Shown one piece after another: positions 5,767-20,000 of a stretch of DNA of 20,000 bases. The DNA comes from an uncultured virus (IMG/VR IMGVR_UViG_3300030380_004460) (taxonomy: Duplodnaviria > Heunggongvirae > Uroviricota > Caudoviricetes): the IMG/VR virus record IMGVR_UViG_3300030380_004460, one strand, 5' to 3'. A model generated the notes under the pieces. The model did no database searches and was not told the origin of the DNA. It saw only the letters and a program-made list of their open reading frames with translations. Numbering within the stretch: position 1 is the stretch's first letter; the number at the start of each line of letters is the position of its first letter. The position numbers and the translations under genes are program-made.

Positions 5767-6038
5767 CCTAGCGGCCCCTTACTATTCTGTGGTAAGTCAT
5801 CATCATCTCCGTCTACCGTAGGTAGTATGCTAATTAAATCCACTGCCTCTTCTATACTCAACGACCATACCTTATGCATAATATGTTGTTCTGTAGGTTG
5901 CGCTCCCATAATAACAGGAGCAGTCTCTTCTGCTTTTTTCTTATGATGTATTGCGCATCCTCTCAGCAAATCTAACCACTGTTCTCGGTTTATTGCTTGT
6001 CTGTTCTTTTCTAAATCTTTCATTTCTTCTTCTGTCAT
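5763..6038 (-). CDS. Hypothetical protein
   Basis: 91-aa ORF with 4-nt overlaps at both ends. Confidence 0.75.
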   Translation of the reverse strand: MTEEEMKDLEKNRQAINREQWLDLLRGCAIHHKKKAEETAPVIMGAQPTEQHIMHKVWSLSIEEAVDLISILPTVDGDDDDLPQNSKGPLG

Positions 6039-6310
6039 CTCAAAAACTCCGGTACTTTATCTTTTATTCTATTTGCTTGTGTCTTAGTATATCTAAAAAC
6101 AACGTCGCCTTTAGTGTCCTCTTGTACAGTCCACTTCTTAACTATCACTAAATCTCCAACTCTCACCCATACTTTCTTTTTCATCTTTCCTACAATACGG
6201 CACATTCTATTTTTTTCATCTTCACAGATTACTGTTGCTCTAGCTGCGCCATTCATTTCCCTAACCACACCAAACATTTCACCTCTTGGTGCGTAGGGTA
6301 GTTTATTCAT
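6035..6310 (-). CDS. eif1a: Archaeal translation initiation factor aIF-1A (eIF1A homolog, OB fold)
   Basis: GEMFGVVREMNG...VICEDEKNRMCRIVGKMKKKVWVRVGDLVIVKKW...KGDVVFRYTKTQ matches the aIF-1A/eIF1A consensus; start ATG 6310 after GGTGG. Confidence 0.93.
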   Translation of the reverse strand: MNKLPYAPRGEMFGVVREMNGAARATVICEDEKNRMCRIVGKMKKKVWVRVGDLVIVKKWTVQEDTKGDVVFRYTKTQANRIKDKVPEFLR

Positions 6311-7682
6311 ACCAACCACCGTAGTCTATATCGTCAGTCTTAACTTCTACTGCTGGTAAATCAGCAGCTAAAACGTGTTTTGTATTATCAAATGGGTTAA
6401 TTACTTCAACTTCTGTGCAGTAGTTACGAATGTATTCTTCTGCAATTTCTGGCCAAGTTTGTCTCATCAAATCAGCAGTACCACGCATCAACTCTCCCCA
6501 ATCAATTTTTGTACTTGGTTCTCTTACTAATGCTGACTTAAAGTATGTTATTTTCTTATCTTCTTCTTCTTGTTCTAAAAATCCTAACATAACTAAAGAC
6601 GTAAGTAAAGGATTGATGTTCTTCTGAGCAAACGGCAACCCAGCTTGACGTGCAGCTTGTTGTATCTCTTTCTTAGTCATCTTGATTACTTCTGCTGTAA
6701 CCATACCAAACTTATCTATCTCTGTGTCAGGTATCAGTTTAAGTATATCTGTACCGTGTGATGGCATCTGTAAACATTCTGTCACAAACGTGTCAATGTA
6801 AATTTGTGTTGCTAGCCAATTATGTTTAGGTGTTATCAACCCATACTGCACACCGTCTCTTTCTACTCTAACTAACTCGCCGGGGTAGAATCTAGCAACT
6901 GCATTGATTAACTTAAGATAGTAATGAACTTTACTTCTAGCTATAGGAAATAATGTTGGTATCAAATCATACAAGAAAGGAGCACAAGGATTTCTTACTT
7001 TAACACCCTTACTGTCATCCCTTTCTATAATACAATTAGCAATATGTTTTTTTAGTGCTTCTATCTCTTCATCTTCCATAGTAACTAAATCTTCGTGTGG
7101 TTTAGCAAAAGTATCTAGTTTGTACTTAATAACATCTTCAGTTTGTTTTACTGTAGGATTTGTATGTGTTACCATATACCTACGTTCTAACTCAGCATCT
7201 AAGAATGCATCACCTCTTTTATTCTCTACTGCCTTACAGACAAACACAAACTTAGGGTGTAACACTTGTTCTCTAACATCTTGTATGGTCACATCAGTTC
7301 TCTTTCTAACTGCTGCCCTATCATCTGCCCACGTTTTTAATATCTCAATAATAGCTTCTGGACATTTCTGTGCTTCAGGTATTGCAAGGAATCTTGATGA
7401 ATTTATTCTATCCATATCATACCACAGTGCTGTTTCAGACATTTGTTCTACAACAGTATATGGTATACCTGTACCTTCTAGTAAGTTAAACACAGCATTC
7501 ATAATAACAGTTTTACCTGTACCACTGTATGCATTAATCATAAAATTAGTGTCTTCTAGTAAGTAAGACAGTGCTGCAGTTACAGCAAGTTTGTCTTCAC
7601 CTATGATAGGGACGTGTTCGCCCTTTTCATTCCTTACGTTATGAAAATACCTAACTAAATCGGTAAGTTCAAACTGGCTCAA
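6303..7682 (-). CDS. AAA+ ATPase / MCM-like helicase with C-terminal winged helix
   Basis: Walker A AYSGTGKT, SETALWY, Walker B-like FLAIPE, Arg finger ELERRY; wHTH-like MTKKEIQQ...LTSLVMLGFLEQ. Confidence 0.75.
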   Translation of the reverse strand: MSQFELTDLVRYFHNVRNEKGEHVPIIGEDKLAVTAALSYLLEDTNFMINAYSGTGKTVIMNAVFNLLEGTGIPYTVVEQMSETALWYDMDRINSSRFLAIPEAQKCPEAIIEILKTWADDRAAVRKRTDVTIQDVREQVLHPKFVFVCKAVENKRGDAFLDAELERRYMVTHTNPTVKQTEDVIKYKLDTFAKPHEDLVTMEDEEIEALKKHIANCIIERDDSKGVKVRNPCAPFLYDLIPTLFPIARSKVHYYLKLINAVARFYPGELVRVERDGVQYGLITPKHNWLATQIYIDTFVTECLQMPSHGTDILKLIPDTEIDKFGMVTAEVIKMTKKEIQQAARQAGLPFAQKNINPLLTSLVMLGFLEQEEEDKKITYFKSALVREPSTKIDWGELMRGTADLMRQTWPEIAEEYIRNYCTEVEVINPFDNTKHVLAADLPAVEVKTDDIDYGGWYE

Positions 7683-11866: not shown

Positions 11867-11960
11867 TTTCTCTCCGTGCTCTATTAAGCAAAGTTGCTAT
11901 AAACATATGCTTGTCATACAAATGCTTAGTATGCTCTATTAGGCTATTAGAAGAGCGTAC

Positions 11961-11970
11961 TATATAAAAA
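11961..11970 (-). promoter_or_regulatory. TATA-box promoter candidate
   Basis: TTTTTATATAGTA in an about 108-nt intergenic gap; shares TTTATATAGTA with the 8598 site. Confidence 0.55.
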
Positions 11971-11974
11971 TTAC

Positions 11975-12115
11975 TCATATGTAAACCCTATCTTCTGGCT
12001 TAACTAATCTTTGGTAACAAATGTGACAGTATGGATTACCAGCAGTGTCTCTATACCTAACGTAATTTAAAAATAGTCTACATTTACAAGTGTTACAAAC
12101 AGTGTAATTACTCAT
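11975..12115 (-). CDS. 46-aa zinc-finger micro-protein
   Basis: MSNYTVCNTC...PYCHICYQRL...; ATGA overlap, SD GAGGT. Confidence 0.72.
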   Translation of the reverse strand: MSNYTVCNTCKCRLFLNYVRYRDTAGNPYCHICYQRLVKPEDRVYI

Positions 12116-12270
12116 TTATACCTCGATTTTACTCTAATCGCTTGATTACAATCAGGACATCTTTTATACGTTTTATCCCACACTGATGTACACATTGAGC
12201 ACCAATTCCATTTGGCATAACCACCGTGATTTTTACGAGGTCCTACTTCAGTTTTGTAACCATTATGCAT
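12112..12270 (-). CDS. 52-aa zinc-ribbon micro-protein
   Basis: MHNGYK...WCSMCTSVWDKTYKRCPDCNQAIR... Confidence 0.72.
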   Translation of the reverse strand: MHNGYKTEVGPRKNHGGYAKWNWCSMCTSVWDKTYKRCPDCNQAIRVKSRYK

Positions 12271-12412
12271 CCATTAACCTCTTACATTTAGCACAGTTTA
12301 TGTGCCTATTCCAAAACGGTTTGCTCATATGATATTTTTCTTGAACTGTCAAACCTTTCACTCCACAAGCAGTGCTACCTGTTTCTTTTATCAGTAAGTG
12401 TTTTCTTCTCAA
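12263..12412 (-). CDS. 49-aa HCCC zinc-finger micro-protein
   Basis: TTG start after GAGGTGA: MRRKHLL...TACG...INCAKCKR. Confidence 0.68.
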   Translation of the reverse strand: MRRKHLLIKETGSTACGVKGLTVQEKYHMSKPFWNRHINCAKCKRLMDA

Positions 12413-12488
12413 CTTTCTTCACCTCGAATATCGGCAGTTTGAAGAACTGCATTTCGTCTATCATTCTTTGTAATCCCTTTCTCTTCAT
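12375..12488 (-). CDS. 37-aa basic micro-ORF (frame uncertain)
   Basis: MKRKGLQRMIDEMQFFKLPIFEVKKVEKK... after SD GGTGAT; an alternative 27-aa frame (12409..12492) also fits the gap. Confidence 0.4.
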   Translation of the reverse strand: MKRKGLQRMIDEMQFFKLPIFEVKKVEKKTLTDKRNR

Positions 12489-12647
12489 TCATATATCACC
12501 ATACATATATTTACCATTGTAGCAGTATGGACAAGTATCTATCTCTTCTTTCTCATCAAACTCCGTCTCTACTATTTCACCGCAGTCAGGGCATTCAGTG
12601 ATGCCACTGCCGTCAACAAAATCGCATATATCTATCATCGAATCCAT
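12489..12647 (-). CDS. 52-aa acidic zinc-ribbon micro-protein
   Basis: ...TECPDCGEIVE...DTCPYCYNG... Confidence 0.72.
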   Translation of the reverse strand: MDSMIDICDFVDGSGITECPDCGEIVETEFDEKEEIDTCPYCYNGKYMYGDI

Positions 12648-12649
12648 AG

Positions 12650-12883
12650 TTATTCAATAGGCCCCTCTTTTAAAAGATTTTCTAATTTATTAGTTACTTC
12701 ATCTAAAAGCGATTCTAAGTTATGAATTTTTGCTAACAAATCTTTCTCTCTATTGAAAGCACCTGATAGCATTTTATCTCTTTCCATAAGTTCTCTCGCA
12801 GAATCCTCAGCAACTTGACACATATGTAAATACTTATCTTCAAGACCCTGTCTTTCTTCTGCTTCTAATCTACCATCACTCAT
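12650..12883 (-). CDS. Hypothetical coiled-coil protein
   Basis: 77 aa with heptad pattern. Confidence 0.7.
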   Translation of the reverse strand: MSDGRLEAEERQGLEDKYLHMCQVAEDSARELMERDKMLSGAFNREKDLLAKIHNLESLLDEVTNKLENLLKEGPIE

Positions 12884-13780: not shown

Positions 13781-13789
13781 ATTTTGTCC

Positions 13790-13900
13790 TTGTAATGGGC
13801 AGGTAGCGGATACGCAAAATTTAGTGTATGCCTACTTACGATTGCTGCTACAGAGGATTGTCGCAGCCAGAATTCAGTTTCCACTACCTACCTTTCATTA
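13790..13900 (-). ncRNA. BHB-closed structured RNA element 1 (predicted 102-nt excisable RNA)
   Basis: U-AAUG-AAA-GGUAGGUAGUGGA ... UCCGCUACCUGCC-CAUU-ACA-A: 4-bp helix, two 3-nt bulges, 13-bp stem with 2 G.U pairs; internal GCUGC/GUAGC hairpin. Confidence 0.65.
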
Positions 13901-13914
13901 CGTTGTTATCTTAT

Positions 13915-14628
13915 TTAAAATCTTGGGTGCGGCATACCTCCAATTTGCCAATCTCTCGTAACTTCACCGTCAGTCCATATAAGATGCCCTGCTCTCATAA
14001 TTTGTCTACCATCTTCACTAAATGAACCATTAAATGTGTTGACCCATTCATCATAAGTCATATGCATCAATACATATAGTCTGTAGCTCATAGCTCGTTT
14101 TAACGAACTAGAATGATAGTCAGGAAATACTTCTTCGCAATATGCTTGGTAAAGTTCATTGTGAGTATCATCAAGCCTTAAATCTCTGTTTGATGAGTAT
14201 ATCTCAGGAATATTCACGTTGCCTGTAATAAAGTGATGTGACCCGCTGTAATGCTCATCAGCAGTGCGATAAGGCCATCCTTGTCTTTGACCAGTTTTAT
14301 ACAGCACAATATCTCCTGTGATTGAATCGTCATCAAGACCACCCAGCAATCTAGTGTGTATGATGCTGTCATACCTTTGCGTTTCGAACTTGATTGTCCG
14401 ACCGTTCTTTTTGTAGAGCACAACCCATCTTCTACAACGGGTTTCACCTTGTATACGATGAAATATCTCAAGTTCTTGCTCAGTAAACTGATTGCGTGTG
14501 CAGTTTCTCACTAGCGAAGCGTGAGGCCTTGAAAAGTCATCCATTATATCACCTAACTCAGCGATAATATGAACTCTTTCGCGGTCTTCTTTGAACTTCT
14601 CAGCGTTGATTACTATTGTCTGTGTCAT
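13915..14628 (-). CDS. Hypothetical protein flanked by BHB elements
   Basis: 237 aa, SD GGAG; no recognised motif. Confidence 0.8.
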   Translation of the reverse strand: MTQTIVINAEKFKEDRERVHIIAELGDIMDDFSRPHASLVRNCTRNQFTEQELEIFHRIQGETRCRRWVVLYKKNGRTIKFETQRYDSIIHTRLLGGLDDDSITGDIVLYKTGQRQGWPYRTADEHYSGSHHFITGNVNIPEIYSSNRDLRLDDTHNELYQAYCEEVFPDYHSSSLKRAMSYRLYVLMHMTYDEWVNTFNGSFSEDGRQIMRAGHLIWTDGEVTRDWQIGGMPHPRF

Positions 14629-14635
14629 TTGTGTT

Positions 14636-14747
14636 CTCCATTTGTGGGGAAGGAAGCCGTAGGAACAGGGGAAATTGCAAAACCCCTATGTTGAAAGCGA
14701 AACAAACTAAACAAACTGTGTTTGACTTCCTTCCTGTCCACTGCGAG
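14636..14747 (-). ncRNA. BHB-closed structured RNA element 2 (predicted 94-nt excisable RNA)
   Basis: CUC(G)CA-GUGG-ACA-GGAAGGAAGUC ... GGCUUCCUUCC-CCAC-AAA-UGGAG: full hBHBh' geometry, 11-bp stem; internal AUAGGGG/CCCCUGU hairpin. Confidence 0.75.
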
Positions 14748-14773
14748 TGTTGTGCTGCGGGGAGACCGGAGCA

Positions 14774-15091
14774 CTATTTTTTTATCCTCCTGAGTAAACT
14801 CTTTTCACGGCGAGATGTACCAATGATTCTTTTTCTTTTGACAGCTCTTGCGTGTTCAAGTTGCTTACGAAGTACTTCTTTGCGTTTTTCTGTGTTAGCA
14901 ATAAACACAGTTCTACCGTCATCATTTGTGAATACAGAGTATCGTAACTCTGTTCGCTTCATTTCATCTGGAAAGAACTCTCCAGAACAGCACGCACATC
15001 TGTAACATTCGTGATTGTGTTTAGTTTCATTAACTAATCTAACATTGCCGCCATCGTCACAATCAGGGCATTCTATCTTTACTTGAACCAT
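14774..15091 (-). CDS. Zinc-ribbon protein with basic C-terminus
   Basis: CPDC...CACC; TAATG overlap with the peptidase stop. Confidence 0.75.
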   Translation of the reverse strand: MVQVKIECPDCDDGGNVRLVNETKHNHECYRCACCSGEFFPDEMKRTELRYSVFTNDDGRTVFIANTEKRKEVLRKQLEHARAVKRKRIIGTSRREKSLLRRIKK

Positions 15092-16392
15092 TATTCTTCC
15101 TCCATATCAAAAGCATTTGCTTGTTCTGCAATCTTCAAAGCATCTTCGAAGTCTTGCATTTCTTTGATTGAAATCACTGCGTCAGTTCCGTCGCCACCAC
15201 TACCGATTACGATGTACTGATTGACTTCTGATAACTCCACAAAGAAGTCGCTCCATCCCTCATCAATCACAATAGATTTGTGAGACGCACTGAGATAGAC
15301 GTGACCTTTGCTTTGTAATGCATCGAACATACCAATACTACCTGTTGCATCTTCAATGTGGTCCATAATAGCATCGAACATATCAAGTGCTTCGTCAAGG
15401 TCTACATCAGTCTTACTACTGTAAACACCAGAGCTGTTACTGTAGTATTTGATACCATTGTATTCTGTTTGGCTGTATGCATCATATCTTTCGTAGTTTG
15501 CATAACTGTAAACACCGCCACCCCAACTGTATGAAGCAGTAGGTTTGTATTTGATGTTATCAGGATTTAGACTGAAGTATGTATGAAGCGTTGGTGCAAG
15601 ATACTCGATGAATTGAACTGCTTGCATAAGTTCTTCGTATACAACATACTCACTACCACTGTGTGCATTGTAGTAACCAGCGAATAGATTGATGCCATTG
15701 ATTTGTAACTCTTTGACAATATTGCTGACATCTGATATAGAACCGGTGGATGTCTTGAGACCAAAGTCTTTGCCCCACTCACCGAGCTTTGCATCAAGTT
15801 TGTCAGAGCACAGTTGAACGTCACTGTTCTTGGTGATGATTTCGTCACAACCACGGCGGTCGATAGTAATGTTGAACACAACGTCATCGAACATATCTTT
15901 GTGATTGGACATAGCGAAGTCACTACCGTTTAGTCCTGTCTCTTCTGCTACACATAGTAACCCTGACAGCGGGGTAACTAGCGTTCTGTTGGTGATACAC
16001 TTGAGGACAGCGAATACACCACACTTGTCGTCACCGCCAATAACTTGATTGTTAGTTGAACGGAATACTGTCTTACCATCTTTCTGCTCCTCAACAACTT
16101 CAGGGACAGCAGAACCAACTGTGTCCATATGTGCGTTGAGAAGTATGCGGCGGTCTCCCTCGATGTGATTGGTGAAATAGATATTACCCATACTGTCTAC
16201 AGTATGCTCTATCTCATTGTCACGGAGGTAGTTCGTCACAAATGCAATCATAGGATGTTCTGCTCCACTAGGACTGAATATATCAAACATAGATTTCAGC
16301 AGTGTCTTGTCATCCATTGATGCAGTAGAAACAGGGAAAGCAGTTAGACGACTGTCTTTTGCTTCTGTTTTCATTTCTGTTTTAGTTTTCAT
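15091..16392 (-). CDS. M20/M28-family zinc metallopeptidase/hydrolase
   Basis: LNAHMDTV, GGDDKCG, AEETGLNGS, IDRRG, GSISD, GYYNAH; true start probably ATG 16392 (MKTKTE) after GGAG rather than 16665. Confidence 0.88.
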   Translation of the reverse strand: MKTKTEMKTEAKDSRLTAFPVSTASMDDKTLLKSMFDIFSPSGAEHPMIAFVTNYLRDNEIEHTVDSMGNIYFTNHIEGDRRILLNAHMDTVGSAVPEVVEEQKDGKTVFRSTNNQVIGGDDKCGVFAVLKCITNRTLVTPLSGLLCVAEETGLNGSDFAMSNHKDMFDDVVFNITIDRRGCDEIITKNSDVQLCSDKLDAKLGEWGKDFGLKTSTGSISDVSNIVKELQINGINLFAGYYNAHSGSEYVVYEELMQAVQFIEYLAPTLHTYFSLNPDNIKYKPTASYSWGGGVYSYANYERYDAYSQTEYNGIKYYSNSSGVYSSKTDVDLDEALDMFDAIMDHIEDATGSIGMFDALQSKGHVYLSASHKSIVIDEGWSDFFVELSEVNQYIVIGSGGDGTDAVISIKEMQDFEDALKIAEQANAFDMEEE

Positions 16393-18167: not shown

Positions 18168-18223
18168 TGTGTGCCGCAGCATAATTCTCTTTTCTCAGCG
18201 CAATCTCACGCTGCGGGGTGCAC
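18168..18223 (-). ncRNA. Imperfect BHB-like hairpin (element 4)
   Basis: GUGC-ACCC-CGCAGCGUGA ... UUAUGCUGCG-GCAC-ACA: 4-bp helix and 10-bp stem with 2 G.U pairs, but the 5' bulge is 4 nt. Confidence 0.45.
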
Positions 18224-18243: not shown

Positions 18244-18322
18244 ATTTGTCGGGATAGGAATAGAGCACTGTGAAAGTGAAAAGCATAAAGAAAATTTTTG
18301 CTCCACTCCCATCCTATCGACT
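18244..18322 (-). ncRNA. BHB-closed structured RNA element 3 (predicted 70-nt excisable RNA)
   Basis: A-GUCG-AUA-GGAUGGGAGUGGAGCA ... UGCUCUAUUCCUAUCC-CGAC-AAA-U: 16-bp stem with 3 G.U pairs. Confidence 0.75.
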
Positions 18323-19530: not shown

Positions 19531-19595
19531 TTTCTTTCACTTCCAGCACTCCATTTTTTAGTAGGAGCACAGTAAAAAATACAATACGCTGAGAT

Positions 19596-19607
19596 TATAT
19601 AAAGCCT
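19596..19607 (-). promoter_or_regulatory. Archaeal TATA-box promoter (putative early promoter)
   Basis: AGGCTTTATATA, identical to 8598-8609; followed by a leader hairpin GTGCTCC...GGAGTGC. Confidence 0.7.
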
Positions 19608-19619
19608 TGTACCAGCGGT

Positions 19620-20000
19620 TTTTCTCACCCCAGCACACAGCACTGCTATAAACTACATCCAGCATAGCGTTAAAAATCGCGGGGGAGCATAACGTATACT
19701 ATAGAGCTATACGTTAGGCCTTACAGCAATATTATAAGCTTATGTTAAGTCTAAGCTTAATAGAGCAATAAAAGAAGAAAGTGCTATACAGTATATACTA
19801 CATAGCACTATAGTACTATATAGAGCTATAATATACACTTCGACGTATGCCTTTAGTAATACAGCAAACGCACACACACTGTAGCATTCTAGTTTTGGGC
19901 AAGCGTATGAAAAAGAGGGGGAGCACAACGTATGGCTGCCCGAATTTTGCTCAGAGCGCAAGCGGATGCTCTCAGCAGTACCTCCCGCTGCAGCAGACCG
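19620..20000. repeat. Non-coding repeat/palindrome region (candidate origin or genome terminus)
   Basis: 17-nt direct repeat GGGGGAGCA(T/C)AACGTAT at 19681 and 19917; inverted repeats 19690-19716 and 19780-19809; palindrome TATAGTACTATA 19809-19820; many AGCA tetramers. Confidence 0.6.

What the first reader, a model, noticed from the sequence alone, without database searches (positions are those of the whole stretch)
14629..14747. BHB element 2 sequesters the Shine-Dalgarno of the downstream gene
The outer helix of this BHB pairs CUC(G)CA with UGGAG, which contains the GGAG SD of the 237-aa gene. The predicted 3' cut (14642|14641) leaves a 13-nt leader before ATG 14628. Inference: cleavage would expose the ribosome-binding site, giving a processing-dependent translation switch.
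Basis: partly seen in the sequence, partly recalled or inferred. Interest (0 to 1): 0.75.

Follow-up and report, generated by a model that had tools for sequence, protein, structure and literature searches.

The report
Conserved BHB intron in archaeal virus
A marine virus of archaea carries, just ahead of one of its genes, a conserved RNA fold of exactly the shape that archaeal cells cut out of their own tRNAs, which suggests that the virus uses the host's tRNA-splicing enzymes on its own messages.

Summary
On the minus strand, 14747-14636 folds into a textbook hBHBh' motif. It has a 4-bp helix GUGG/CCAC, 3-nt bulges ACA and AAA on opposite strands in the tRNA-intron topology, an 11-bp inner stem, and an outer helix CUC(G)CA/UGGAG that contains the GGAG Shine-Dalgarno.

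- **Host:** the record is a 54.9-kb tailed virus, and the host is almost certainly an archaeon. The virus encodes an archaeal-type aIF1A, and its capsid protein matches only Haloarcula viruses.
- **Rarity:** sliding MFE scans of this genome and of a 75.5-kb relative found two canonical BHBs in all. Both lie at the orthologous site.
- **Conservation:** the relative keeps the 3-4-3 geometry with a changed central helix (GCAG/CUGC) and a different 153-nt interior.
- **Shine-Dalgarno masking:** full masking occurs only in the window's clade. Only UGG pairing is kept everywhere, and in-silico religation re-masks the site.

My best reading is a BHB-bounded 94-nt intron or processing cassette in a viral leader, cut by host EndA. 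The translation switch is a possible local consequence, not shown. No RNA data were available.

The parts
14754..14772 (-). 5' hairpin ('hairpin 1'): GCUCCGG (14772-14766), loop UCUCC, CCGCAGC (14760-14754). It starts 2 nt after the TAG stop (14776-14774) of the 105-aa gene.
   Evidence: All 6 pairs are invariant in 7 distinct sequences, while loop positions vary. The same motif stands alone, without a BHB, 12 nt before a Shine-Dalgarno in G001 at 7272-7291.
14742..14747 (-). Outer helix h, 5' strand: CUC, bulged G, CA.
   Evidence: The pairs A-U, C-G and C-G are kept in 7 of 7 sequences; the two distal pairs are lost in 2 of 7.
14738..14741 (-). Central 4-bp helix H, 5' strand GUGG.
   Evidence: 4 of 4 pairs invariant in the close family. 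It is replaced by GCAG/CUGC in G001, with 4 bp kept.
14735..14737 (-). 5' bulge ACA (AUA in relatives). The predicted 5' cut is 14736|14735.
   Evidence: The exact bond is recalled from the canonical rule, not tested.
14642..14735 (-). Predicted excised RNA, 94 nt. It holds the 11-bp inner stem (14734-14724 with 14658-14648), the conserved single-stranded GUUUGUUUCGCUUUCA, and an apical hairpin (14689-14683 with 14671-14665) with loop UUUUGCAAUUU.
   Evidence: The apical hairpin has 4 pairs with changes on both sides. The inner stem is invariant, 11 of 11 pairs. The intron is 94 nt in the window clade, 97 nt in L013/L014 and 153 nt in G001.
14644..14647 (-). Central helix H, 3' strand CCAC.
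14641..14643 (-). 3' bulge AAA. The predicted 3' cut is 14642|14641.
   Evidence: Invariant in all relatives, G001 included.
14636..14640 (-). Outer helix h, 3' strand UGGAG. GGAG 14639-14636 is the Shine-Dalgarno of the 237-aa gene.
   Evidence: Pairing probabilities are 0.63-0.91 in the window. A GGAG/GAGG core stands before 21 of 46 predicted starts, against 7% background.
13915..14628 (-). Downstream gene, 237 aa, no known family.
   Evidence: The start is fixed by invariant M1 T2 Q3 T4 in 8 aligned homologues. There are no Pfam, PHROG or NCBIfam hits. The AF2 model has pLDDT 37.
14774..15091 (-). Upstream gene, 105 aa: a zinc-ribbon-like protein with a basic tail. Its last 27 nt are conserved at nucleotide level.
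   Evidence: The homologue in G001 is 108 aa, in the same order.
18244..18322 (-). Paralogous element e1: GUCG/CGAC helix, AUA bulge, 16-bp purine/pyrimidine stem, then AAA, with no closing outer helix (relaxed, HBh'-like).
   Evidence: Covariance-model hit of 26.2 bits, E 6.6e-4, to model positions 36-141; fold. Counterparts occur in G002 and in G001, the latter with GCUG/CAGC and an AAA bulge.
13781..13914 (-). Paralogous element e3: GUAAUG/CAUUAC helix, a single AAA bulge, a 13-bp stem, directly followed by AAGGA and the ATG of the next gene.
   Evidence: Fold. Two G-C to A-U compensatory changes in L013-L016. Aligned in register by the model.

Best explanation
The element is a canonical archaeal bulge-helix-bulge (hBHBh') motif. 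It bounds a 94-nt structured RNA in the untranslated stretch between the 105-aa and 237-aa genes of a marine tailed virus of archaea.

**Proposed mechanism (inferred, not shown).**
1. On the viral transcript, the host tRNA-splicing endonuclease EndA cuts in the two 3-nt bulges, at 14736|14735 and 14642|14641.
2. The host ligase RtcB circularises the 94-nt piece.
3. RtcB also rejoins the flanks, giving a leader of hairpin 1, a short spacer, the Shine-Dalgarno and the ATG.

The 3' cut always falls one nucleotide before UGGAG. Processing therefore remodels the ribosome-binding region of the downstream gene, and any fraction that escapes religation would be an mRNA with a free Shine-Dalgarno and a 13-nt leader.

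The interior of the intron is strongly conserved within the close family. This suggests that the excised RNA also has a role of its own.

**Shown:** the fold, its rarity, its conservation with compensatory change, and the archaeal host.
**Inferred:** cleavage, ligation, and any effect on expression.
For: **The host is an archaeon.**
- A 94-aa ORF (window 6035-6319, minus strand) is an archaeal-type aIF1A: Pfam PF01176 at E 5e-19, and NCBIfam NF003084 at 107.9 bits against a cut-off of 91.
- None of the 19 PDB matches is named as a bacterial IF1. The best are entries titled translation initiation factor 1A / aIF1A, such as 5jb3, and most of the rest are named eukaryotic eIF1A. That the best ones are archaeal is recalled.
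- The major capsid protein matches 8 of 50,697 phage records, and all 8 are Haloarcula tailed viruses.
- Liu et al. 2021 (PMC8651126, passages) place that capsid clade among marine archaeal viruses.

**The geometry is canonical.** It has a 4-bp helix, two 3-nt bulges in the tRNA-intron topology, and flanking helices. This matches the definition quoted in PMC7714728 and PMC4090602.

**It is rare.** It is the only canonical BHB in MFE scans of the whole virus. The only one in relative G001 lies at the orthologous site. The mirror control gave 1 hit. Chance pattern matches gave 0 of 24.

**It is conserved.**
- The intergenic element has 86-87% mean column identity, while the flanking protein falls to 56% identity.
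- In G001 (protein 34% identical over residues 103-237) the central helix is GCAG/CUGC instead of GUGG/CCAC. That is two pairs changed on both sides.
- G001 keeps bulges AUA and AAA, has outer helix CCA/UGG, and has a different 153-nt interior. Its fold has z -3.34, and 0 of 200 shuffles fold as well.

**G-U pairs in the apical hairpin fit the sense strand only**.

**An intron-less comparator exists.** In G001, hairpin 1 stands 12 nt before a Shine-Dalgarno with no BHB between them.

**There is a precedent.** A 46-nt BHB intron in the 5' UTR of Haloferax HVO_1309 is cut by recombinant endonuclease and seems to be needed for expression (PMC7714728, passages). The splice sites are described as transplantable (PMC4090602).
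Against: - Within the close family the central helix (4 of 4 pairs), the inner stem (11 of 11) and hairpin 1 (6 of 6) never vary. Covariation for the BHB itself therefore rests on one distant orthologue and on paralogues whose positional homology I inferred from architecture.
- Such strict sequence invariance is more than a structure-only enzyme like EndA would demand. It hints at another reader of the sequence.
- In L013, L014 and L016 the outer helix shrinks to 2 bp, a 1-nt bulge and 1 bp, and the full motif is absent from their MFE folds. It is also absent from the MFE fold of L011.
- The outer helix of the window itself carries a 1-nt bulge.
- Paralogues e1 and e3 have only the 5' bulge. 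The conserved unit may therefore be a single-bulged hairpin, with e2 gaining a second bulge by pairing with its flank.
- The host lineage, and hence its EndA type, is unknown.
- The 200-nt scan missed the G001 element because that element spans about 170 nt. The scans therefore undercount long introns.
Confidence: 0.55

Rival explanations
1. The outer helix hides the Shine-Dalgarno, EndA cleavage frees it, and translation of the 237-aa gene depends on processing.
For: - GGAG is paired at 0.70-0.91 in the window and at similar levels in L002, L010 and L012.
- The free 3' fragment has G, G, A 0.87-0.97 unpaired.
- UGG of UGGAG lies in the outer helix in all three lineages, and the 3' cut always lies one nucleotide before it.
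- HVO_1309 expression falls when endA is repressed (PMC7714728).
Against: - Full masking is not conserved. In L013/L014 the G, A, G are 0.76-0.99 unpaired in the precursor, and in G001 the A and G are 0.93 and 0.77 unpaired.
- After in-silico ligation the site is paired again: 0.02-0.25 unpaired in the window clade, and 0.08 and 0.16 for GG in G001.
- Element e1 lies about 140 nt from the next Shine-Dalgarno.
Confidence: 0.2
2. The BHB likeness is incidental. e1, e2 and e3 are a family of leader or trailer hairpins: a short G-C-closed helix, an A-N-A bulge, and a purine strand paired with a pyrimidine strand. A viral or host protein, or another nuclease, reads them for mRNA stability, termination or translational control.
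For: - Three paralogues in the window share sequence features beyond structure: G..G/C..C helices, A-N-A bulges, GGAAGG-like strands and a 3' AAA.
- Two of the three lack the second bulge.
- The primary sequence is extremely invariant.
- e1 is followed by a U-rich stretch and by a separate TATA-like box before the next gene.
Against: - It does not explain why e2 keeps exactly 3-4-3 with the correct topology in three lineages while the helix sequence changes.
- It does not explain why canonical BHBs occur nowhere else in 130 kb of two genomes.
- Single-bulge forms (HBh') are themselves known substrates of broad-specificity EndA (PMC4090602).
- There are no K-turn GA pairs and no C/D boxes.
Confidence: 0.22
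3. An RNase III processing hairpin of a bacteriophage, like the intercistronic sites of T7 or the lambda N leader.
For: The helices add up to about 20 bp interrupted by small bulges, between genes of one operon-like block. The ribonucleotide reductase is closest to those of bacterial phages, at 46-50% identity.
Against: The virus encodes an archaeal aIF1A, and its capsid protein matches only archaeal viruses. RNase III would not select for a 3-4-3 geometry.
Confidence: 0.02
4. The region encodes a small protein: a 49-codon frame from GTG 14773 to a TGA that overlaps ATG 14628.
For: The frame is open in the window (read).
Against: In L013-L016 the GTG is ACG, and the same frame hits TAG within 13 codons. 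Conservation is even over all three codon positions, and variation sits in covarying stems.
Confidence: 0.01

Closest known systems
BHB intron in the 5' UTR of Haloferax volcanii HVO_1309 (Schwarz et al. 2020, PMC7714728; abstract and passages read)
   Same: A BHB-bounded piece lies in an untranslated mRNA leader, upstream of a protein gene. The leader sequence is conserved among relatives. The excised piece is circular, and removal is linked to expression.
   Different: That case is cellular, 46 nt long, and experimentally shown. This one is viral, 94-153 nt, has a structured conserved interior, has its 3' cut abutting the Shine-Dalgarno, has paralogous relaxed copies in the same genome, and rests on prediction alone.
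BHB intron in cbf5 pre-mRNA of Crenarchaeota (PMC2738675; listing and abstract only)
   Same: An mRNA is a substrate of the tRNA-splicing endonuclease.
   Different: That intron interrupts the reading frame. Here both cuts lie in untranslated sequence, and splicing joins no reading frames.
BHB processing stems around archaeal 16S and 23S rRNA (PMC7714728)
   Same: The BHB serves as a processing signal in a polycistronic precursor. Both the excised piece and the flanks are ligated.
   Different: Those release large rRNAs from long processing stems. Here the released piece is a small RNA of unknown role.
RNase III sites in phage T7 early mRNA and the lambda N leader (recalled, not read here)
   Same: The logic is the same: a virus places the processing signal of a host rRNA/tRNA-maturation nuclease between its genes, and cleavage can free a ribosome-binding site.
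   Different: The enzyme, the domain of life and the motif all differ, and bacteria do not religate.
Relaxed hBH / HBh' splice motifs of non-canonical tRNA introns (PMC4090602, passages)
   Same: Elements e1 and e3 have one bulge beside a short helix, like HBh'.
   Different: Those motifs occur in tRNAs of lineages with alpha2beta2 EndA. Whether this virus's host has such an enzyme is unknown.

Membership tests
Archaeal hBHBh' splice motif (EndA substrate) | Central helix of exactly 4 bp | tested here: met
   GUGG/CCAC in the MFE fold. The pairs are invariant, 4 of 4 in 7 sequences. G001 has GCAG/CUGC.
Archaeal hBHBh' splice motif (EndA substrate) | Two 3-nt bulges on opposite strands, in the tRNA-intron topology (5' strand: outer, central, bulge, inner) | tested here: met
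   ACA and AAA in the window, AUA and AAA in relatives and in G001. The scan required this topology, and the mirror topology gave only 1 hit elsewhere.
Archaeal hBHBh' splice motif (EndA substrate) | Flanking helices h and h' on both sides | tested here: met
   The inner helix is 11 bp. The outer helix is 5 bp with a 1-nt bulge in the window and 3 bp in G001. It is weaker in L013-L016, at 2 bp, a bulge and 1 bp, and is not in their MFE folds.
Archaeal hBHBh' splice motif (EndA substrate) | The motif is kept by compensatory change in relatives | tested here: met
   Between the window and G001, two of the four central pairs changed on both sides and the geometry is kept. Within the close family there is no variation to test.
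Archaeal hBHBh' splice motif (EndA substrate) | It is expressed in a cell that has the splicing endonuclease | tested here: inconclusive
   An archaeal host is inferred from the viral aIF1A and from capsid kinship. The host itself and its EndA were not identified: no relative was found in genome contigs.
Archaeal hBHBh' splice motif (EndA substrate) | Cleavage in the bulges, with ligated exons and a circular intron observed | not testable with these tools
   No RNA run holding the locus was listed. The one run laid gave 0 contigs.
Processing-dependent Shine-Dalgarno unmasking switch | Shine-Dalgarno paired in the precursor throughout the family | tested here: not met
   It is paired in the window clade. 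In L013/L014 three of the four nucleotides are 0.76-0.99 unpaired, and in G001 two are 0.77-0.93 unpaired.
Processing-dependent Shine-Dalgarno unmasking switch | Shine-Dalgarno freed in the processed product | tested here: inconclusive
   It is freed in the unligated 3' fragment and re-paired in the ligated exons. Both results are in silico.
C/D box, H/ACA or permuted tRNA carried in a BHB intron | C and D boxes, K-turn GA pairs, or a tRNA fold on the circle | tested here: not met
   There are no box motifs, and ARAGORN finds no gene on the doubled intron. There are no tRNAs in the window.
Any Rfam family | Score at or above the gathering threshold | tested here: not met
   0 matches over the window. 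The best sub-threshold match in 14500-14900 has E 1.2.
Bacterial RNase III site | Bacterial host | tested here: not met
   Archaeal aIF1A and an archaeal-virus capsid protein.

The most novel reading that the evidence does not exclude
Marine archaeal tailed viruses carry a small family of BHB-bounded RNA cassettes, in strict and relaxed forms, in the untranslated regions between their genes. The host tRNA-splicing machinery (EndA and RtcB) excises them into stable circular viral non-coding RNAs. In element 2 the 3' splice site is placed exactly at the Shine-Dalgarno, so splicing status sets translation of the downstream gene. These would be the first virus-borne BHB introns, and the first case of a virus using archaeal tRNA splicing to mature its mRNAs. 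It would be the archaeal counterpart of RNase III sites in T7.
Probability: 0.3. Interest if true: 0.85.

Novelty: new variant of a known kind. Interest (0 to 1): 0.68.

Why it matters
BHB motifs are known in tRNAs, in rRNA precursors and in two kinds of cellular mRNA (cbf5 and HVO_1309). Three searches of the held library found no paper that describes one in a viral mRNA leader: required all their terms, and required 2 of 3. I saw listings and abstracts only, and subscription journals are mostly not held.

If this one is cut, it shows that archaeal viruses use the host's tRNA-splicing enzymes for their own gene expression. It would also add viruses as a source of archaeal circular RNAs. The test object is compact, about 150 nt: recombinant EndA could be tried on a transcript tomorrow. 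The same virus encodes its own aIF1A, which points to a broader viral grip on archaeal translation initiation.

Tried and rejected
- **RNA evidence.** No RNA holder was listed for 13900-15100. The one metatranscriptome offered had 0 contigs on 14300-15100.
- **Known RNA families.** Rfam gave nothing. There are no tRNA or tmRNA genes. The circle holds no permuted tRNA and no C/D boxes.
- **Trans targets.** No complementarity of 13 nt or more to other viral transcripts was found; there were only scattered 10-12-mers (whose output also listed the trivial antisense self-match).
- **Naive string search for BHBs.** It gave 2,222 and 2,347 loose matches per strand, so it does not discriminate.
- **Small-ORF reading.** Rejected.
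- **The element in cellular genomes.** 0 matches to a 20-mer.
- **Capsid relatives in cellular genomes.** None found, so there is no host assignment that way.
- **Further relatives in IMG/VR.** By protein and by pattern I found only G001 and G002. Two of the four hits were GC-rich chance matches.
- **The 237-aa protein.** It has no family, the AF2 model is unusable at pLDDT 37, and the Atlas gave no hit.
- **MAFFT alignment with G001.** It put the 5' half out of register (A6), so I made no formal pair count across that distance. I relied on the fold and on the model-guided alignment.
- **TATA-like boxes.** TTTAWATA occurs 28 times on the two strands, several of them before genes. The spacing to likely transcript starts was too uncertain to use as evidence.
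- **RNA-repair genes in the virus.** There is only a sub-threshold PNKP-phosphatase hit, at 19 bits against a cut-off of 27.6.
- **Papers.** The Poseidoniales virus paper (PMC11706807) has 0 mentions of initiation factor, IF1A, intron or ribonucleotide reductase. PMC6462027 is not held.

Full report
**What is there.** All genes of the window lie on the minus strand. Between the TAG of a 105-aa gene (14776-14774) and the ATG of a 237-aa gene (14628) lie 145 untranslated bases.

Their minimum-free-energy fold has four parts:
- a small 5' hairpin (14772-14754);
- an outer helix, CUC-G-CA with UGGAG;
- a 4-bp helix, GUGG with CCAC;
- an 11-bp stem, GGAAGGAAGUC with GGCUUCCUUCC, which carries an apical hairpin.

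A 3-nt bulge ACA sits on the 5' strand between the 4-bp helix and the inner stem. A 3-nt bulge AAA sits on the 3' strand between the 4-bp helix and the outer helix. This is the strand order of a pre-tRNA intron, not its mirror image. The rule for the exact bond is recalled.

**Is it more than chance?** Energy alone is unremarkable: z -1.61, and 11 of 200 shuffles fold as well. A loose string definition of a BHB matches thousands of places. I therefore asked how often a canonical motif appears in an MFE structure. I defined it as 4 bp, two 3-nt bulges, and at least 2 bp on each side.

| Scan | Windows | Canonical | Mirror topology |
|---|---|---|---|
| This genome, both strands, 200 nt | 2,734 | this element only | 0 |
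| This genome, both strands, 260 nt | 1,680 | this element only | 0 |
| G001 (75.5 kb), both strands, 200 nt | 3,014 | 0 (missed, see below) | 0 |
| G001, + strand, 260 nt | 1,158 | orthologous element only | 0 |
| G001, - strand, 260 nt | 1,158 | 0 | 1 |

The 200-nt scan of G001 found nothing because its element spans about 170 nt. That shows a limit of the method. Among 26 viral loci that share a 16-base pattern with the 3' half, the two true relatives show the motif and 0 of the 24 others do. Of 14 intergenic stretches of this genome folded one by one, only this one has it.

**Whose virus?** The window is part of a 54,852-base IMG/VR record. The record has a tape-measure protein, a portal, a major head protein, PolB, a RecU-like resolvase, a methylase and a class II ribonucleotide reductase.

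Three lines of evidence point to an archaeal host:
- A 94-aa ORF at 6035-6319 is a translation initiation factor of the archaeal/eukaryotic 1A type. Pfam PF01176 matches at E 5e-19. NCBIfam NF003084 scores above its cut-off. None of the 19 PDB matches is named as a bacterial IF1, and the best are entries titled translation initiation factor 1A / aIF1A. That these best entries are archaeal is recalled.
- The major head protein matches only 8 of 50,697 phage records, all Haloarcula tailed viruses.
- Liu et al. 2021 describe exactly this capsid clade as dominated by marine sequences. It lies interspersed with reference viruses of Marine Group II, Thaumarchaeota and Thermoplasmata (PMC8651126, section 15).

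Two results pull the other way. The reductase resembles those of bacterial phages, and PolB is only about 22% identical to anything cultured. I read both as uninformative rather than contrary. An archaeal host means that the enzyme which recognises BHB motifs is present wherever this RNA is made.

**Conservation.** The 237-aa gene has relatives in one viral contig and 13 metagenome contigs, marine by their names. Protein identity runs from 100% down to 56%.
- The untranslated element is far better kept than the gene, at 86-87% mean column identity.
- The apical hairpin covaries: AGGGG/CCCCU, GCUGGG/CCCAGC, AAUGGG/CCCAUU and GAUGGG/CCCAUC. Four pairs changed on both sides. Its G-U pairs fit only the sense strand.
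- The central helix, the inner stem and the 5' hairpin never vary in 7 distinct sequences. That neither supports nor contradicts pairing.

The informative comparison came from G001. I reached it through the 5' hairpin motif, and it has the same gene order: peptidase, zinc-ribbon gene, element, homologue of the 237-aa gene. There the central helix is GCAG/CUGC, so two of the four pairs changed on both sides. The bulges are AUA and AAA, and the outer helix is CCA/UGG. The inner stem is 14 bp with a different upper part. The interior is a different 153-nt set of hairpins. The canonical motif is in the MFE fold, with z -3.34 and 0 of 200 shuffles as good. Geometry kept while sequence and interior change is what selection on a BHB predicts.

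**A family of elements.** A covariance model built from the close family found the G001 orthologue at E 3.9e-5. It also found two further kinds of hit.
- **Element e1** (window 18322-18244) has GUCG/CGAC, an AUA bulge, a 16-bp stem and a 3' AAA, but no closing outer helix. Its G001 counterpart has GCUG/CAGC, an AAA bulge and at most two A-U pairs outside. The interior of that counterpart holds the same GCUGGG...CCCAGC hairpin as element 2 of the window's relatives.
- **Element e3** (13914-13781) has one AAA bulge and two compensatory changes in the distant clade.

So four different 4-bp helices, all closed by G-C at both ends, stand beside an A-N-A bulge and a purine-rich strand. Only element 2 has the second closed bulge. 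The single-bulge forms resemble the relaxed HBh' sites that alpha2beta2 endonucleases accept (PMC4090602). They could equally mean that the unit under selection is a single-bulged hairpin read by something else. That is my main rival reading.

**The Shine-Dalgarno question.** GGAG is a real Shine-Dalgarno here. A GGAG/GAGG core precedes 21 of 46 predicted starts against 7% background, and the start of the 237-aa gene is fixed by alignment.

| Lineage | Unpaired in precursor | Unpaired in unligated 3' fragment | Unpaired after in-silico religation |
|---|---|---|---|
| Window | 0.10-0.28 | 0.87-0.97 for G, G, A | 0.16-0.25 |
| L002, L012 | 0.11-0.32 | varies (0.07-0.98) | 0.02-0.22 |
| L011 | G, G 0.24-0.25; A, G 0.72-0.75 | varies (0.37-0.98) | 0.09-0.21 |
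| L013, L014 | first G 0.30-0.35; other three 0.76-0.99 | mostly free | about as in the precursor |
| G001 | GG 0.08, 0.17; AG 0.93, 0.77 | 0.71-0.91 | 0.08, 0.16 for GG |

The pairing probabilities in the window's own precursor are 0.70-0.91. What is conserved everywhere is the pairing of UGG and the position of the 3' cut, one nucleotide before UGGAG. The known BHB substrates are ligated after cleavage: circular introns and circular pre-rRNAs were sequenced in Haloferax. When I joined the predicted exons in silico, the Shine-Dalgarno was paired again in the window clade and in G001.

I keep it as a possible local consequence, not as the function.

**Most likely mechanism.** The host EndA cuts in both bulges of the viral transcript. 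RtcB closes the 94-nt piece into a circle and rejoins the flanks. The rejoined leader has the architecture hairpin 1, short spacer, Shine-Dalgarno. That architecture exists without any BHB before another gene of G001, as one would expect of an intron-less leader.

Because the interior is strongly conserved within the close family, the excised RNA may act on its own. I found no boxes, no tRNA fold and no obvious target. Cleavage, ligation and any effect on expression are inferences from the established behaviour of BHB motifs.

**Comparison with what is known.** The nearest precedent is the 46-nt BHB intron in the 5' UTR of Haloferax HVO_1309. It was found as a circular RNA, is cut in vitro, and its gene goes down when endA is repressed (PMC7714728). 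The authors state there that only cbf5 was known before as a further BHB intron. Functionally the arrangement recalls RNase III sites in T7 and lambda (recalled).

I found no report of a BHB in a viral mRNA leader in three searches of the held library. This says nothing about journals that are not held. I did not read the supplements of any paper.

**Verdict.**
- The element is best filed as a new, virus-borne variant of the archaeal BHB intron or processing motif (confidence 0.55).
- Shine-Dalgarno masking is a clade-specific feature, not the conserved function.
- The decisive experiment is a simple EndA cleavage assay.

Noticed in passing
window 6035-6319 (-): The virus encodes a 94-aa archaeal-type translation initiation factor aIF1A. 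Pfam PF01176 matches at E 5e-19. NCBIfam NF003084 scores 107.9 bits against a cut-off of 91. The best PDB matches are entries titled translation initiation factor 1A / aIF1A (5jb3, 4mno, 1jt8), and none of the 19 matches is named as a bacterial IF1; that the best ones are archaeal is recalled. One search of the held papers listed no paper whose title or abstract describes a virus-encoded aIF1A. I did not look further.
   Followed up: partly
It has a 4-bp G-C-closed helix, a 3-nt bulge, a long purine/pyrimidine stem and a 3' AAA, but no closed second bulge. It starts right after the stop codon of the 65-aa ORF and is followed by a second hairpin built on CCCCGCAGC.
   Followed up: partly
window 13781-13914 (-): Element e3 is a conserved hairpin with a single AAA bulge and two G-C to A-U compensatory changes in L013-L016. 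A TTTAAATA box at the stop codon of the 237-aa gene precedes it, and AAGGA and the next ATG follow it directly.
   Followed up: partly
window 14754-14772 (-); G001 C1:7272-7291; window 18190-18215 (-): A C-rich motif (NCNCCCCGCAGC, within small hairpins) recurs in several untranslated regions of this virus and of G001, beside or apart from the bulged elements. Related GTGCTCC / ATGCTCC-CCC motifs stand in the first 470 bases of the record.
   Followed up: no
window 19531-20000 (-), which is G000 1-473: The end of the record is a 470-base gene-free, highly structured stretch (MFE -147.6 kcal/mol for 498 nt). It holds repeated motifs and a perfect TTTATATA box 25 nt before a GTGCTCC...GGAGTGC hairpin, upstream of the first gene.
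   Followed up: no
window 11867-12650 (-): A run of very small ORFs with CxxC pairs (zinc-ribbon-like), none reaching 60 aa, fills what looks at first like a 780-base gap.
   Followed up: no
G000 42529-46485 (L018:4529-8485, -): A 1,318-aa virion protein has three concanavalin/laminin-G-like lectin domains (PF13385, E 4.6e-67) and an N-terminal jelly-roll hit (PF07953, E 1e-13). It is probably a receptor-binding fibre.
   Followed up: no
G001 C1:6222-6380 and 6362-7141: In G001 the counterpart of the 237-aa gene appears as a 52-aa ORF followed by an overlapping 259-aa ORF. Only residues 103-237 of the window protein match, at 34% identity. The BHB precedes the 52-aa ORF.
   Followed up: no
window vs G000 C1:4-20003: The window and the laid genome differ at 10 of 20,000 positions, so the laid record is a near-identical copy rather than the same sequence. 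None of the differences lies in the element.
   Followed up: yes
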